Shown piece by piece: positions 36,030 to 38,234 of a DNA stretch of 39,344 nucleotides. Below the pieces are notes generated by a model that was not told the origin of the DNA, did no database searches, and saw only the letters and a list, made by a program, of their open reading frames with translations. Numbering within the stretch: position 1 is the first letter of the stretch; every line of letters starts with the position of its first letter. Location of the stretch: positions 1 through 39,344 of the IMG/VR virus record IMGVR_UViG_645058835_000004; one strand, written 5' to 3'. The stretch comes from a virus. Taxonomy: Duplodnaviria > Heunggongvirae > Uroviricota > Caudoviricetes. Made by a program: the position numbers and the translations under genes.

Positions 36030-36812
36030 ATGACAGACCTTCCTAACAATGAAGAGATGCTTCTTTATGCCAAAAGGAACCTTGAGTTTTTCATTAAAAC
36101 ATTCTACTTACACTTTTATTCTGACATTGAGTTATTGCAAGCCCCAGCTCAACCTGAAACAGAAGAACAACGACTGAAACGCTTAATATCCGAAAAAGAG
36201 AGTTTCTTTCAATCTGGCTTGGTAATACTCTTTAATTCTGCTGAAATATATCTAAAGTCTATAATTGCTGAGCATAGTGTTTATTTACTTTTAAAAGAAG
36301 TAAAAGACTGCTATAAAAACAAATCATTTTTCGAATGTTCAACATTAGACGCAACCGAGCTACATAGAATAGCACAAAGTATCAGTGGGCGAAATCTTTC
36401 ACCGCGCTTTAATGAAATTTATGATATTTTGCGCAAAGAAAGAAATAAAGTAATTCACTTAGGTAAAAGTAATAATAAAGAAATACGTAAAGACTTTTTA
36501 AGTGCATTTCTAATTTTTCGAGAGGAGATATATCAAGAGCCTCTTAATAACCTGGTTCATTGCTTGATAAATGATAAAAACATGCCTGAACAAAAATTAG
36601 TCGAGGCAAAGAAAAACTATGCAGCAAGCATTATAGACATGATGAAAACATTTTTTCCTTTAGATGATATTTTAGCCAACATATATAAGATTGATGGAAA
36701 ACCGAAAAATTGGAATGTTTGTACTAATTGTCAAACTCCGGGGAAAACACTCGCCGTCATATCTAAAACTAAATCAATTTGCTTATCATGTGATTTTAAA
36801 ATAGGATTGTAA
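36030..36812 (+). CDS. Cargo protein with HEPN-like RNxxxH motif and C-terminal zinc ribbon
   Basis: 260-aa AT-rich ORF starting at the cI stop (TAAATG); motif RNKVIH (aa 138-143); C-terminal CTNC...CLSC. Confidence 0.45.
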   Translation: MTDLPNNEEMLLYAKRNLEFFIKTFYLHFYSDIELLQAPAQPETEEQRLKRLISEKESFFQSGLVILFNSAEIYLKSIIAEHSVYLLLKEVKDCYKNKSFFECSTLDATELHRIAQSISGRNLSPRFNEIYDILRKERNKVIHLGKSNNKEIRKDFLSAFLIFREEIYQEPLNNLVHCLINDKNMPEQKLVEAKKNYAASIIDMMKTFFPLDDILANIYKIDGKPKNWNVCTNCQTPGKTLAVISKTKSICLSCDFKIGL

Positions 36813-36814
36813 AC

Positions 36815-37885
36815 ATGGAAAACTTAAAATACATACCTTTTAATCAAGTAGATTTTTCTGATGTTTTTTTTGACTCTTTAAAATCCGATTATGCTCATGG
36901 GTTTATTGATTGGTTCCATTCTAAATGTAAATCAAATGATTATGCATATGTCCTTTATGATGAACAAAATAAAATTGATGGTTTTTTGTATCTAAAAACA
37001 GAAGTAGGTATCATTGAAGATACAAAACCAAATATTCCTGATGGTATTCATCTAAAAGTTGGAACATTTAAATTTAATCCAAAAGGAACTCTTCGCGGTC
37101 AACGATTTTTAAAAAAAATATTCGATCACGCTCTAGATAATAATGCTAACAATATATATGTGACTGTTTTTGAAAAACATGACTACTTAATTAGACTATT
37201 CAAAATCTATGGCTTTATAGATGTTGGAGTAAAAGAATCTGAAAATGGTGTAGAGCGAGTACTAATAAAAGAAATGAATAGTAATGCTCTTACGGGCGAT
37301 ATACTGTCAGATTATCCATTTATTAATGACAGAGGCAGTGAAAATAAATTCTTGCTTTCAATATACCCCGTATTTCATACTCGTTTATTCCCTGACTCAA
37401 AATTAATTACAGAGTCACCAGACGTTGTTGCTGATGTATCATATGCAAATAGCATTAGAAAAGTATATATTTGTGGCATGTCAGATGTTGAATTAATGAA
37501 GCCAAACGATATAATCGTTATATACCGAACATCCGATAATCAAGGACCTGCATATTACCGTTCTGTTGCTACTTCTTTATGTGTAGTAGAAAAAGTTAGA
37601 AATATAAACTCTTTCGTTACAGAGAAAGAATTTCTAAATTACTGTTCTAGATATTCTGTTTTTACAGAATCTGAGCTTAAAAGTTTTTATAGAACAAAAA
37701 AATACCCATATATTATAAGCTTTACATATAACCTTGCTTTGCCCAAAAGACTAAATCGTGCTAAACTTATTTCTGAAGTAGGATTATCCCCGCGAGCTTA
37801 CTGGGGGATCATGAAGTTAACAAACGAACAGTTTAATAGCATTATTAAACTTGGTGGCGTCAATGAAAGTATTATTGTCAATTAA
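36815..37885 (+). CDS. Cargo two-domain protein (N-terminal GNAT-like fold candidate, unassigned C-terminal domain)
   Basis: 356-aa AT-rich ORF 2 nt after the previous gene; N-terminal region has GNAT-like features (LRGQRFLKK...LFKIYGFIDVG). Confidence 0.4.
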   Translation: MENLKYIPFNQVDFSDVFFDSLKSDYAHGFIDWFHSKCKSNDYAYVLYDEQNKIDGFLYLKTEVGIIEDTKPNIPDGIHLKVGTFKFNPKGTLRGQRFLKKIFDHALDNNANNIYVTVFEKHDYLIRLFKIYGFIDVGVKESENGVERVLIKEMNSNALTGDILSDYPFINDRGSENKFLLSIYPVFHTRLFPDSKLITESPDVVADVSYANSIRKVYICGMSDVELMKPNDIIVIYRTSDNQGPAYYRSVATSLCVVEKVRNINSFVTEKEFLNYCSRYSVFTESELKSFYRTKKYPYIISFTYNLALPKRLNRAKLISEVGLSPRAYWGIMKLTNEQFNSIIKLGGVNESIIVN

Positions 37886-38234
37886 CCCAGAGCATGTAGA
37901 AAAAATCCTTAATGGAACAAAGAAATTTGAATTCCGAAAAGGAATTTTCAAAAAACCGGATGTAAAATCTGTGGTTATTTATTCAACAATGCCTGTCGGT
38001 AAAGTTGTTGCTGAATTTGACATTGCAGATGTTATAGAAGACAAGCCAAGTATTGTATGGGAAAAAACAAGCCAATACGCAGGTATCAGCAAACAATTTT
38101 TTGACTCATATTTTCATAGCAAAGAAAAAGCCTTTGCTATAGAAATTGGCAATCTAAAAATCTATGATCAACCGCTTCATCTAAGTTCATTAGGTGATAA
38201 CATAACGGCCCCGCAATCATATCGGTACTTATGA
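37863..38234 (+). CDS. ASCH-domain protein
   Basis: 123 aa from the ATG at 37863 (MKVLLSINPEHVEKILNGTKKFEFRK...), a pattern I recognise as an ASCH/PUA-like N-terminus; overlaps the preceding gene by 23 nt. Confidence 0.65.
   Translation: MKVLLSINPEHVEKILNGTKKFEFRKGIFKKPDVKSVVIYSTMPVGKVVAEFDIADVIEDKPSIVWEKTSQYAGISKQFFDSYFHSKEKAFAIEIGNLKIYDQPLHLSSLGDNITAPQSYRYL

What the first reader, a model, noticed from the sequence alone, without database searches (positions are those of the whole stretch)
36030..38234. Unassigned three-gene AT-rich cargo operon between cI and int (HEPN-like/Zn-ribbon, GNAT-like fusion, ASCH)
Three tightly packed or overlapping genes of much lower GC than the backbone sit between the repressor and integrase, on the lysogenic transcript, so they should be expressed in the lysogen. 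Gene 1 has an RNKVIH (Rx4H, HEPN-like) motif plus a CxxC...CxxC ribbon; gene 2 has a GNAT-like N-terminus; gene 3 is an ASCH domain. ASCH domains are associated with binding or hydrolysis of modified RNA nucleosides and GNATs acetylate, so an RNA-modification-sensing or RNA-targeting module is a reasonable hypothesis. I cannot match this combination to a named defence or toxin system.
Basis: partly seen in the sequence, partly recalled or inferred. Interest (0 to 1): 0.8.

Follow-up and report, generated by a model that had tools for sequence, protein, structure and literature searches.

The report
Three-gene prophage toxin-antidote defence cassette
Between the repressor and integrase genes of a 186-like E. 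coli prophage sit three tightly coupled genes: a predicted RNA-cutting enzyme, an acetyltransferase fused to a nucleic-acid-reading domain, and a small ASCH protein. The last two form a gene pair already predicted by computation to be a defence or toxin-antitoxin system but never tested, and the first gene is an add-on I did not find described.

Summary
Three real, co-oriented genes of about 30% GC fill the cI–int gap of a 186/P2-type E. coli prophage.

- **g2 (36815-37885)** is a GNAT acetyltransferase fused to a PUA-like EVE/ASCH domain.
- **g3 (37863-38234)** is a ZmASCH-type ASCH protein with an intact GxKxxExR motif.

g2+g3 is PADLOC candidate system PDC-M11 (E 2e-130 and 5e-48). It is also the "GNAT-EVE + ASCH" prophage operon predicted to be toxin-antitoxin-like by Iyer 2013 (as cited by Bell) and Bell/Koonin 2020. 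I found no experimental test of it.

What I did not find described is g1. It is a tiny family (26 clusters in 5.8 billion proteins) and always lies directly upstream of g2. Relatives carry a fused PIN or TIR domain, or a separate membrane protein, in that position.

Published Tn-seq on the orthologous Dickeya dadantii cassette calls the ASCH gene essential and the GNAT gene growth-defective. This fits an antidote role, but AT-rich DNA can bias such calls.

Best reading: a lysogen-expressed, toxin-antitoxin-like abortive-infection module, and a new variant of a known candidate kind.

The parts
35675..36029 (+). 3' third of the cI repressor gene (whole gene 35073-36029; PGAP start 35130). It is part of the same AT-rich block as the cargo, and its stop abuts the g1 start.
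   Evidence: GC 0.313 against 0.439 for the cI 5' part. Other E. coli 186-like cI genes align only up to about 35674. Pfam Phage_CI_repr x2 plus Phage_CI_C. TAA-ATG junction.
36030..36812 (+). g1: 260-aa HEPN-fold protein with a C-terminal zinc ribbon; predicted RNase effector.
36441..36458 (+). Codons for R138-N-K-V-I-H143, the HEPN Rx4H motif of g1.
   Evidence: R138, N139, V141, I142 and H143 are invariant in 20 homologues down to 35% identity. The motif is also kept in the 34%-identical L077 protein.
36720..36791 (+). Codons for C231-x2-C234 … C251-x2-C254, the zinc ribbon of g1.
   Evidence: All four Cys are invariant. The model has three short strands at 227-251.
36815..37294 (+). g2 N-terminal GNAT acetyltransferase domain (residues 1 to about 160).
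37337..37882 (+). g2 C-terminal PUA-like (EVE/ASCH-like) domain (residues about 175-356); basic, pI 9.0.
37863..38234 (+). g3: 123-aa ASCH protein (ZmASCH type); overlaps the g2 3' end by 23 nt; proposed antidote or eraser.
   Evidence: Pfam ASCH 3e-5, above the gathering score. PDC-M11B 4.9e-48. phmmer to ZmASCH 5GUS/5GUQ at 5e-8. ZmASCH itself matches PDC-M11B at 4.9e-27. The orthologue Dda3937_01763 is called essential in Tn-seq.
37914..37937 (+). Codons for G18-T-K20-K-F-E23-F-R25, the ASCH GxKxxExR octapeptide of g3.
   Evidence: G18, K20, E23 and R25 are each conserved in at least 90% of 57 distinct g3 homologues. The Lys/Glu of this motif form the catalytic dyad for ac4C removal in GKER-type ASCH proteins (preprint read).
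38313..39344 (+). P2/186-type integrase; right flank of the cargo slot (context only).
   Evidence: Pfam Int_N plus Phage_integrase. Backbone homology resumes at about 38234.

Best explanation
The cassette is a lysogen-expressed, toxin-antitoxin-like immunity (abortive-infection) module of the GNAT-EVE/ASCH class (PADLOC candidate PDC-M11). A dedicated HEPN–zinc-ribbon RNase gene has been added to it.

**Proposed working**
1. The three genes are co-transcribed with cI and translationally coupled.
2. g2 uses its PUA-like EVE/ASCH-type domain to dock on a base in RNA (tRNA, aminoacyl-tRNA or other RNA; DNA is not excluded). Its GNAT domain acetylates that target.
3. g3, an ASCH protein with an intact Lys/Glu catalytic motif, binds the same kind of substrate and removes or neutralises the mark. 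This keeps the cell alive.
4. When infection upsets the balance, g1 cleaves RNA and stops growth. g1 sits in the position where relatives carry fused PIN or TIR domains or a separate membrane protein. The upset could come from loss of g3 supply or from phage-modified nucleic acid; the trigger is unknown.

**Shown here**
- Gene anatomy, folds and motifs.
- Strict g1-g2-g3 linkage and co-divergence.
- Swapping of the upstream or N-terminal module.
- A variable cargo slot.

**Taken from published data**
- The ASCH orthologue scores as essential in Tn-seq.
- ASCH proteins bind or cleave ssRNA and deacetylate ac4C.

**Inferred**
- The acetylation target.
- Which protein is the toxin.
- The trigger.
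- Any anti-phage phenotype.
For: **Folds and motifs**
- g1 is HEPN with invariant Rx4H and a zinc ribbon.
- g2 is GNAT plus a PUA-like domain.
- g3 is ASCH with conserved GxKxxExR, and with Y40/S119 matching the ZmASCH residues Y47/S128 needed for nucleic-acid binding.

**Class membership**
- PDC-M11A/B hits at 2e-130 and 5e-48.

**Core pair**
- In a 55-locus sample of species-representative genomes across Proteobacteria, Bacteroidota and Firmicutes, every locus with a complete g2 has a g3-type ASCH gene next to it, almost always overlapping its end.
- The same 23-nt overlap appears in Klebsiella, Pseudoalteromonas and a TIR-fused form.
- ASCH is fused into the same polypeptide in some relatives.

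**Effector swap**
- Relatives are PIN-GNAT-EVE, ASCH-PIN-GNAT-EVE or TIR-GNAT-EVE.
- In other 186-like prophages, a 355-358-aa protein with a hydrophobic C-terminus replaces g1.

**g1 linkage**
- All g1 relatives examined at 34% identity or more sit directly upstream of g2, at most 2 nt apart wherever start and stop were read, with an ASCH gene nearby. These are E. coli, Dickeya, Enterobacter, Photobacterium, L077 and 8 IMG/VR contigs.
- The trio also occurs outside 186-like prophages, next to SymE/RhuM and a P4-like primase.
- Identities co-diverge. g1/g2/g3 identity to the window is 52/73/80 for Dickeya, 57/72/69 for Enterobacter, 35/58/54 for Photobacterium and 34/51/49 for L077.

**Toxicity hint**
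- In D. dadantii 3937, which carries the same cI-g1-g2-g3-int layout, Tn-seq calls ASCH essential and GNAT growth-defective.

**Biochemistry of the ASCH family**
- ZmASCH, itself a PDC-M11B member, is an ssRNA RNase in vitro.
- ASCH proteins remove ac4C from tRNA with a Lys/Glu dyad.

**Cargo slot**
- Related E. coli prophages at the same att site carry a different gene between cI and int.
- No terminator-like site lies between cI and int.
Against: - I found no direct test of toxicity, RNase or acetyltransferase activity, or phage defence for any member.
- PDC-M11 is only a candidate.
- The Tn-seq calls come from a mariner/HMM analysis of a roughly 30%-GC region. AT-rich DNA bound by nucleoid proteins is known to be under-inserted (my own knowledge), so 'essential' may be an artefact.
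- g1 was not annotated in that study and has no Tn-seq call.
- The GNAT gene scoring as growth-defective rather than neutral does not fit a simple picture in which g2 is the only toxin.
- Most g2-g3 pairs have no added effector, so the pair must work on its own in some way that is not understood.
- ZmASCH was inactive on free ac4C and in vivo in the preprint.
- GNAT motif A of g2 is divergent (L in place of the central G), so acetyl-CoA use is not assured.
- Pfam EVE is not detected in g2 itself.
Confidence: 0.55

Rival explanations
1. There are two independent cargoes in one slot. g1 is a stand-alone HEPN toxin or Abi gene, and it merely neighbours a separate two-gene GNAT-EVE/ASCH system.
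For: The g2-g3 pair exists without g1 in all 55 species-representative loci. The cI–int slot accepts different cargo. The upstream position is filled by an unrelated membrane protein in Klebsiella, Raoultella and Dickeya.
Against: Every g1 relative examined at 34% identity or more sits directly upstream of g2, at most 2 nt apart wherever start and stop were read, in five divergent bacterial contexts and eight IMG/VR viral contigs. The trio moves together to non-prophage islands. Identities co-diverge. Fused PIN and TIR forms show that this position is an integral module of the system.
Confidence: 0.12
2. It is a prophage addiction or stabilisation module. It is a toxin-antitoxin set that kills cells which lose or inactivate the prophage, and it has no role against other phages.
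For: It sits on the cI-int operon, so expression is tied to lysogeny. The Tn-seq essentiality of the ASCH gene is what an addiction antitoxin would show.
Against: The same trio or pair is found in non-prophage islands beside other defence-type genes (SymE, RhuM, P4-like primase, TIR fusion, AAA_17 ATPase). PIN forms are reported next to type I RM and CRISPR systems. The PADLOC candidate set covers anti-phage defence candidates. The two roles are not mutually exclusive.
Confidence: 0.15
3. It is a phage-serving nucleic-acid modification system. GNAT-EVE writes and ASCH edits an acetyl mark on DNA or RNA to protect the phage from host restriction or to retune host translation, and it is not a suicide system. 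This is the suggestion made for GNAT-EVE by Bell et al. (and, as cited by them, Iyer et al.).
For: Writer-like and eraser-like domains are paired, and both are PUA-like readers. Bell et al. propose protection from RM for prophage GNAT-EVE.
Against: Placement on the lysogenic transcript rather than among lytic genes. Association with cell-killing modules (HEPN, PIN, TIR, membrane protein). The Tn-seq hint of toxicity.
Confidence: 0.1
4. It is a non-toxic lysogenic-conversion cargo, for example RNA turnover or ac4C housekeeping. The Tn-seq 'essentiality' is an artefact of poor transposon access to AT-rich DNA.
For: About 30% GC. HMM-based calls smooth over neighbouring sites, and cI next door is truly essential. 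ASCH proteins act as tRNA ac4C erasers in general.
Against: The domain set (HEPN Rx4H, PIN, TIR) is typical of conflict systems. Distribution is patchy and mobile: 28 of 5426 complete E. coli genomes. Pseudogenised copies exist in D. oryzae.
Confidence: 0.08

Closest known systems
(PIN)-GNAT-EVE + ASCH operons (Bell, Wolf & Koonin 2020, BMC Biol 18:159, who credit Iyer et al. 2013, NAR 41:7635) = PADLOC-DB candidate system PDC-M11
   Same: g2 is a GNAT-EVE fusion and g3 is the adjacent ASCH protein. It is located in a gammaproteobacterial prophage, exactly as described for the PIN-less form. PADLOC models match at 2e-130 and 5e-48. The Dickeya orthologue of g2 is in the published EVE census.
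   Different: It has a separate upstream HEPN–zinc-ribbon gene. That gene is not mentioned in Bell et al. or in the HEPN survey; I could not read Iyer 2013. The class itself is only a computational prediction, and I found no experiment on it.
GNAT-type type II toxin-antitoxin systems (TacT/TacA, AtaT/AtaR, ItaT, KacT)
   Same: A GNAT acetyltransferase is paired with a small, translationally coupled partner. The proposed target is the translation apparatus. Bell et al. draw the same analogy.
   Different: The partner is an ASCH (PUA-like, probably enzymatic) protein, not an RHH/DUF1778 DNA-binding antitoxin. The GNAT carries a fused reader domain. There is a third HEPN gene. No sequence-level match was found: the NCBIfam and Pfam hits are to PaiA-like enzymes only.
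HEPN RNase toxins and defence effectors (HEPN/MNT toxins, Csm6/Csx1, RnlA/LsoA, Gifsy-1 HepS)
   Different: There is no MNT, CARF or RnlB-type partner. It has a C-terminal zinc ribbon. There is no Pfam HEPN family hit, only weak PADLOC DUF3644, HEC-08 and Csx1 hits. Its partners are GNAT-EVE and ASCH.
ZmASCH of Zymomonas mobilis (PDB 5GUQ) and GKER-type ASCH ac4C deacetylases
   Same: g3 aligns over its full length with ZmASCH (5e-8). It shares the GxKxxExR motif and the Y47/S128 equivalents. ZmASCH itself scores as PDC-M11B.
   Different: ZmASCH was studied as an isolated enzyme (ssRNA RNase; ac4C removal from tRNA in vitro only). Its genomic partner and biological role were not addressed, and g3 activity is untested.
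Enzymatic writer/eraser toxin-antitoxin systems such as DarT/DarG (from my own knowledge)
   Same: The logic proposed here is the same: a toxin that modifies nucleic acid, and an antidote that removes the mark.
   Different: The chemistry differs (ADP-ribosylation against a proposed acetylation). The domains are unrelated. For this cassette the logic is inferred, not shown.
Defence hotspots of P2-like phages and P4 satellites (Rousset et al. 2022; from my own knowledge)
   Same: A variable, AT-rich cargo slot in a P2-family prophage. The same prophage also carries a retron-type RT at the classical P2 hotspot. The trio also occurs next to a P4-like primase.
   Different: The slot here is the cI–int interval of 186-type phages, not (to my knowledge) one of the hotspots described for P2. 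None of the PADLOC models for named systems matched.

Membership tests
GNAT-EVE + ASCH operon class / PADLOC PDC-M11 | The A protein contains a GNAT acetyltransferase domain. | tested here: met
GNAT-EVE + ASCH operon class / PADLOC PDC-M11 | A PUA-like EVE domain is fused C-terminal to the GNAT. | tested here: met
GNAT-EVE + ASCH operon class / PADLOC PDC-M11 | A second PUA-like ASCH protein is encoded in the same operon. | tested here: met
   Pfam ASCH 25.1 bits against a gathering score of 21.2. PDC-M11B 4.9e-48. 23-nt overlap with g2. The pairing recurs in every locus of the 55-locus sample that has a complete g2.
GNAT-EVE + ASCH operon class / PADLOC PDC-M11 | Toxin-antitoxin or anti-phage activity. 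| not testable with these tools
   Only indirect evidence exists: Tn-seq ES/GD calls for the Dickeya orthologues. I found no experimental paper.
HEPN superfamily RNases | Four-helix HEPN fold. | tested here: met
HEPN superfamily RNases | Conserved Rx4-6H catalytic motif. | tested here: met
   R138-N-K-V-I-H143 is invariant in the family. Its spatial equivalence to the active site of solved HEPNs was not checked because no coordinates were available to me.
HEPN superfamily RNases | Sequence membership in a curated HEPN family. | tested here: not met
   No Pfam, NCBIfam or PDB sequence hit. Only weak PADLOC hits: DUF3644 2.4e-5, HEC-08 0.0024, Csx1 0.011.
HEPN superfamily RNases | Endoribonuclease activity. 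| not testable with these tools
   Needs biochemistry.
HEPN/MNT toxin-antitoxin systems | An adjacent minimal nucleotidyltransferase (MNT) antitoxin. | tested here: not met
   The neighbours are cI, GNAT-EVE and ASCH. No nucleotidyltransferase domain was found.
GNAT/RHH type II TA (TacAT, AtaRT, KacAT) | An RHH/DUF1778 antitoxin gene adjacent to a GNAT toxin of about 160-180 aa. | tested here: not met
   The partner is ASCH and the GNAT is fused to a 190-aa reader domain.
YqfB-type ac4C amidohydrolases | ASCH octapeptide with Thr/Ser (GK[T/S]R). | tested here: not met
   g3 has G18-x-K20-x-x-E23-x-R25, which is the GKER type like ZmASCH and TthASCH.
GKER-type ASCH proteins (ZmASCH/TthASCH/TRIP4) | ASCH fold with a conserved Lys and Glu in the octapeptide. 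| tested here: met
   K20 and E23 are each at least 90% conserved. Full-length alignment to ZmASCH at 5e-8.
Named, validated defence systems in PADLOC-DB v2 (PD-T4/T7/Lambda, P2-hotspot systems, Abi, retrons and others) | Match to any of their protein models. | tested here: not met
   The three proteins gave only PDC-M11A/B hits plus weak hits to HEPN-type models (DUF3644, HEC-08, NsnC, Csx1) for g1 and AbiEi at 0.014 for g3.

The most novel reading that the evidence does not exclude
The cassette would be an acetyl-mark immune switch. GNAT-EVE writes an N-acetyl mark on a nucleic-acid base or aminoacyl-tRNA, the ASCH protein continuously erases it, and accumulation of the mark during infection licenses or targets the HEPN RNase. 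In relatives the licensed effector would be PIN, TIR or a membrane protein. This would be a first case of reversible RNA or DNA acetylation used as the signalling or toxic currency of a bacterial defence system. It would also give a biological role to the widespread ASCH ac4C-eraser activity.
Probability: 0.2. Interest if true: 0.85.

Novelty: new variant of a known kind. Interest (0 to 1): 0.55.

Why it matters
The GNAT-EVE/ASCH pair is widespread: more than 1,800 clusters at 50% identity, across several phyla. It was flagged as a likely toxin-antitoxin or defence system a decade ago, yet I found no experimental test of it.

This E. coli version is convenient for such a test for four reasons:
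- It sits in a tractable host.
- It is on the lysogenic transcript of a 186-like prophage.
- It comes with an obvious executioner candidate, the HEPN RNase.
- It has an orthologue with a published, though confounded, essentiality signal for the ASCH gene.

Pairing an acetyltransferase with an ASCH protein points to a writer/eraser mechanism based on nucleic-acid acetylation. Relatives of that ASCH protein were recently reported to deacetylate ac4C in tRNA. If true, this would be a new chemistry in phage defence. The PIN, TIR, HEPN and membrane-protein swap also gives a clean natural experiment on how one sensor core is wired to different effectors.

Tried and rejected
**g1 searches**
- Pfam, NCBIfam and PHROGs gave nothing usable.
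- The g1 profile against PDB sequences gave only chance hits to ribosomal protein S27. The HEPN assignment therefore rests on fold plus motif.

**Other database searches**
- The GenBank phage collection has no match to the cargo; only the int-proximal backbone matches.
- Rfam found no RNA family in the cassette; the only hit in the window is the host RybB.
- The repeat search found no flanking direct or inverted repeats that would mark an insertion element.
- The promoter scan is at chance level and was not used as evidence.

**Literature**
- Searches for PDC-M11, GNAT-EVE and HEPN+ASCH+acetyltransferase found no experimental work or validated name.
- Iyer 2013 could not be read. I cite it only through Bell et al.

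**Arguments considered and dropped**
- I considered arguing for toxicity from 'broken g2 with intact g3' loci. In six Enterobacterales the split falls at the GNAT|EVE linker, with adjacent or overlapping stop and start codons. These look like genuine two-gene variants rather than pseudogenes.
- I considered that duplication of the cI HTH correlates with the presence of g1. It does not: L083, L084 and L087 have a single-HTH cI together with g1.

**Negative results on other proteins**
- The alternative upstream 355-aa protein and the alternative 314-aa cargo have no PADLOC hit, and the 355-aa protein has no Pfam hit either.
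Full report
**1. What is in the sequence**

The window is an E. coli chromosome segment. It is 100% identical to strain A37 (NZ_CP029327) and carries a complete 186/P2-family prophage. RefSeq annotates ogr, tail, capsid and terminase genes, a replication endonuclease, CII, Fil, CI and integrase, with the host genes ybjL to nfsA on one side.

Three co-oriented ORFs lie at the stated coordinates, between the 186-type CI repressor and the integrase.
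- g1 is 36030-36812 (260 aa).
- g2 is 36815-37885 (356 aa).
- g3 is listed from the TTG at 37851, but PGAP and all homologues start it at the ATG at 37863 (123 aa).

The junctions are tight.
- The cI stop TAA abuts the g1 ATG.
- There is a 2-nt gap between g1 and g2.
- g2 and g3 overlap by 23 nt.

GC is 0.30-0.34 for the three genes, against 0.47 for int and 0.505 for the rest of the prophage. The AT-rich block actually starts inside cI at about 35675. That is also where homology to the cI genes of other E. coli 186-like prophages ends.

No + strand terminator-like site lies between cI and int. Promoter-like matches are at shuffle level. Co-transcription with cI is therefore likely but not shown.

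All three genes are under purifying selection.

**2. What the proteins are**

*g1* has no Pfam, NCBIfam or PHROG assignment.
- R138-N-x3-H143 and the four Cys of a C-terminal ribbon are invariant across the family, down to 34-35% identity.
- Weak PADLOC hits to HEPN-type models agree: DUF3644 at 2.4e-5 and Csx1 at 0.011.

*g2* is a two-domain protein.
- This domain is detectably homologous to g3 (hhalign E 2e-5). It lacks the GxKxxExR motif of g3.

*g3* is an ASCH protein.
- Pfam ASCH scores above the gathering threshold.
- Its closest solved relative by sequence is ZmASCH (5e-8, full length).
- G18/K20/E23/R25 (GxKxxExR) are at least 90% conserved in 57 homologues. So are Y40 and S119, the equivalents of the ZmASCH residues Y47 and S128 needed for nucleic-acid binding.

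**3. It is not unassigned**

- g2 and g3 hit PADLOC's candidate system PDC-M11A/B at 2.4e-130 and 4.9e-48.
- Bell, Wolf and Koonin (2020), citing Iyer et al. (2013), describe a class of (PIN)-GNAT-EVE fusion proteins whose operons almost always encode a second PUA-like ASCH protein.
- They state that the PIN-less GNAT-EVE form is commonly located within prophages of beta- and gammaproteobacteria.
- They predict toxin-antitoxin behaviour and note that no component has been characterised.
- The Dickeya dadantii 3937 orthologue of g2 (73% identical) is listed by accession in their EVE-domain census, at residues 230-365.

So g2+g3 is a member of a known, computationally defined and experimentally untested class. 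My literature searches found PDC-M11 mentioned only as a prediction and found no experimental work.

**4. Comparative anatomy**

*Size of the g2 family.* The g2 family is large: 2,613 clusters at 90% identity, and 1,829 representatives at 50% identity.

*The core pair.*
- In a 55-locus sample of species-representative genomes from Proteobacteria, Bacteroidota and Firmicutes, every locus with a complete g2 has a g3-type ASCH gene next to it, usually overlapping its end.
- The same 23-nt overlap is seen in Klebsiella, Pseudoalteromonas and a TIR-fused form.

*Longer relatives.*
- Some carry an N-terminal PIN domain (about 500 aa).
- Some are ASCH-PIN-GNAT-EVE or PIN-GNAT-EVE-ASCH fusions (about 615-635 aa).
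- One is TIR-GNAT-EVE. Its TIR matches the Thoeris ThsB model at 7.5e-53, and it is again followed by an overlapping ASCH gene.

*The upstream slot in 186-like prophages.* In 186-like prophages of Klebsiella, Raoultella and D. dadantii subsp. dieffenbachiae, the gene between cI and g2 is not g1. It is an unrelated 355-358-aa protein with a strongly hydrophobic C-terminus. Distant relatives of that protein sit beside other GNAT/ASCH genes in Photobacterium and Methylophilus.

The conserved core is therefore GNAT-EVE + ASCH. A variable module sits in front of it: nothing, PIN, TIR, a membrane protein or HEPN.

**5. g1 belongs to the unit**

*A very small family.* The g1 family has 24 clusters by single-sequence search and 26 with a profile, out of 5.8 billion sequences.

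*Always upstream of g2.* Every relative examined at 34% identity or more lies directly upstream of g2, at most 2 nt apart wherever start and stop were read, with an ASCH gene nearby.
- E. coli (this window).
- Dickeya.
- Enterobacter bugandensis.
- Photobacterium.
- An unrelated 2.9-Mb genome, L077.
- Eight IMG/VR viral contigs.

*Contexts outside 186-like prophages.*
- In Enterobacter the trio is not in a 186-like prophage. It sits beside SymE and RhuM genes, and in one strain next to a P4-like primase, with its own 464-nt upstream region.
- In L077 the partner ASCH is convergent and accompanied by an AAA_17/18 ATPase. Bell et al. name this ATPase as a frequent accessory.

*Co-divergence.* Identities of g1/g2/g3 to the window fall together. 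g1 evolves fastest.

| Genome | g1 | g2 | g3 |
|---|---|---|---|
| Dickeya | 52% | 73% | 80% |
| Enterobacter | 57% | 72% | 69% |
| Photobacterium | 35% | 58% | 54% |
| L077 | 34% | 51% | 49% |

*Not previously described.* Neither the HEPN survey of Anantharaman et al. nor Bell et al. mentions a HEPN partner for GNAT-EVE.

**6. Functional hints from published experiments**

*(a) Tn-seq in D. dadantii 3937 (mariner, TRANSIT HMM).*
- The calls are CI (Dda3937_01765) essential, the GNAT gene (Dda3937_01764) growth-defective, and the ASCH gene (Dda3937_01763) essential.
- These are orthologues of g2 and g3, at 73% and 80% identity.
- The strain has the same cI-g1-g2-g3-int layout. Its g1 orthologue (WP_033111641.1, 52% identical) was missing from the annotation used and has no call.
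- An essential ASCH gene downstream of two putative toxins is what an antidote would show. A growth-defective rather than neutral GNAT gene suggests that g2 is not the only toxic component.
- Caveat, from my own knowledge: AT-rich DNA bound by nucleoid proteins is under-inserted by transposons. These calls may therefore be artefacts.

*(b) ZmASCH.* ZmASCH scores as a PDC-M11B family member (4.9e-27). It is a Mg/Mn-dependent ssRNA-specific RNase in vitro.

*(c) ASCH proteins and ac4C.*
- A 2026 preprint reports that 19 ASCH proteins, ZmASCH included, remove N4-acetylcytidine from tRNA in vitro.
- It identifies the Lys/Glu of the octapeptide as the catalytic dyad.
- ZmASCH was inactive on the free nucleoside and in vivo.

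**7. How it most likely works**

The best-supported reading is a lysogen-expressed, toxin-antitoxin-like abortive-infection module.
- GNAT-EVE docks on a nucleic-acid base or aminoacyl-tRNA through its PUA-like domain and acetylates it.
- The ASCH protein has a related fold and an intact hydrolase motif, and it reverses or neutralises this.
- The HEPN RNase is the added executioner, equivalent to the PIN, TIR or membrane modules of relatives.

Anatomy, linkage, effector swapping and the variable slot are shown here. Related E. coli prophages at the same att site carry a different 314-aa gene between cI and int.

The acetylation target, the identity of the toxin or toxins, the trigger and any anti-phage effect are inferred. 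I put 0.55 on the general statement and about 0.2 on the specific writer/eraser-gated RNase mechanism.

The rivals are listed separately with their evidence:
- two independent cargoes,
- pure prophage addiction,
- phage-serving modification,
- a non-toxic cargo with a Tn-seq artefact.

**8. Verdict**

The domains are right and the 'unassigned' claim is outdated for two of the three genes.
- The novelty category is a new variant of a known, still only candidate, kind.
- Interest is moderate to good. This is a tractable E. coli entry point to a widespread and untested system with a plausible new chemistry.

Noticed in passing
window 25017-25946 (- strand), with hypothetical genes at about 26476-28273 (-): The same prophage carries a gene annotated 'retron St85 family RNA-directed DNA polymerase', in the P2-type cargo region between the replication genes and the portal gene. 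The prophage therefore has at least two defence-like cargoes. Rfam found no retron ncRNA at the gathering threshold.
   Followed up: partly
window 35073-36029: The CI repressor has two tandem Phage_CI_repr HTH domains (318 aa; the Dickeya 3937 CI is 395-397 aa with the same duplication). Its C-terminal third (from about 35675) shares the low GC of the cargo and is the homology breakpoint against other E. coli cI genes. The CI C-terminal domain therefore seems to travel with the cassette. The HTH duplication is not strictly linked to g1, because single-HTH cI genes occur with g1 in L083, L084 and L087.
   Followed up: partly
L004-L007 4909-5976; L011 3893-4969; L015 4835-5974: In Klebsiella, Dickeya dadantii subsp. 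dieffenbachiae and Raoultella 186-like prophages, the gene between cI and GNAT-EVE is an unrelated 355-358-aa protein with a strongly hydrophobic C-terminus. The Klebsiella copy has no Pfam or PADLOC hit. This looks like an alternative effector.
   Followed up: partly
L002 9889-12129 (- strand); L040 7944-9140 (-): Distant relatives (398-405 aa) of that membrane protein sit beside other GNAT/ASCH genes. In Photobacterium there is a 405-aa protein, then a short GNAT (185 aa), then ASCH, in an operon convergent with g1-g2. g1-g2 has no ASCH of its own on its strand there.
   Followed up: partly
L088 280-2251 (protein P0170): A TIR-GNAT-EVE fusion, whose TIR matches the Thoeris ThsB model at 7.5e-53, is followed by an ASCH gene with the same 23-nt overlap. 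Other relatives are ASCH-PIN-GNAT-EVE (P0241, P0246) or PIN-GNAT-EVE-ASCH (P0237) single polypeptides.
   Followed up: partly
L047, L053, L056, L060, L066, L067, around 5920-7050: In six Enterobacterales (Kosakonia, strain LSJC7, Pantoea agglomerans, Serratia silvae, Citrobacter portucalensis, Erwinia mallotivora) the GNAT and EVE halves are two adjacent or overlapping ORFs split at the domain linker, with an intact ASCH downstream. This looks like a genuine split-gene variant rather than decay.
   Followed up: no
L070 5045-5989; L071 5046-5994: Related E. coli 186-like prophages at the same rcdA/ybjJ attachment site carry a different single 314-aa gene between cI and int. It appears to have a coiled-coil-like N-terminal half and hydrophobic segments at about residues 165-228, and it has no PADLOC hit. 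In one genome it is frameshifted together with cI.
   Followed up: partly
L078 260-5486: The most distant g1 relative (P0337, 320 aa, 28% identity) is not next to GNAT-EVE. It lies in an operon with a SLFN/AlbA_2 protein, a 130-aa protein and a 1021-aa NACHT protein, which is another defence-like context.
   Followed up: no
D. dadantii 3937 (proteins ADM97071-ADM97073; WP_033111641.1): The original GenBank annotation of strain 3937 has no gene for the g1 orthologue between CI and the GNAT gene. The published Tn-seq essentiality table therefore has no entry for the HEPN gene. D. oryzae carries only fragments of all three genes.
   Followed up: partly
window 2700-2778 (+): The host sRNA RybB (Rfam RF00110, 105 bits) lies just outside the ogr end of the prophage, among host genes that RefSeq annotates as ybjL and ybjM.
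   Followed up: no
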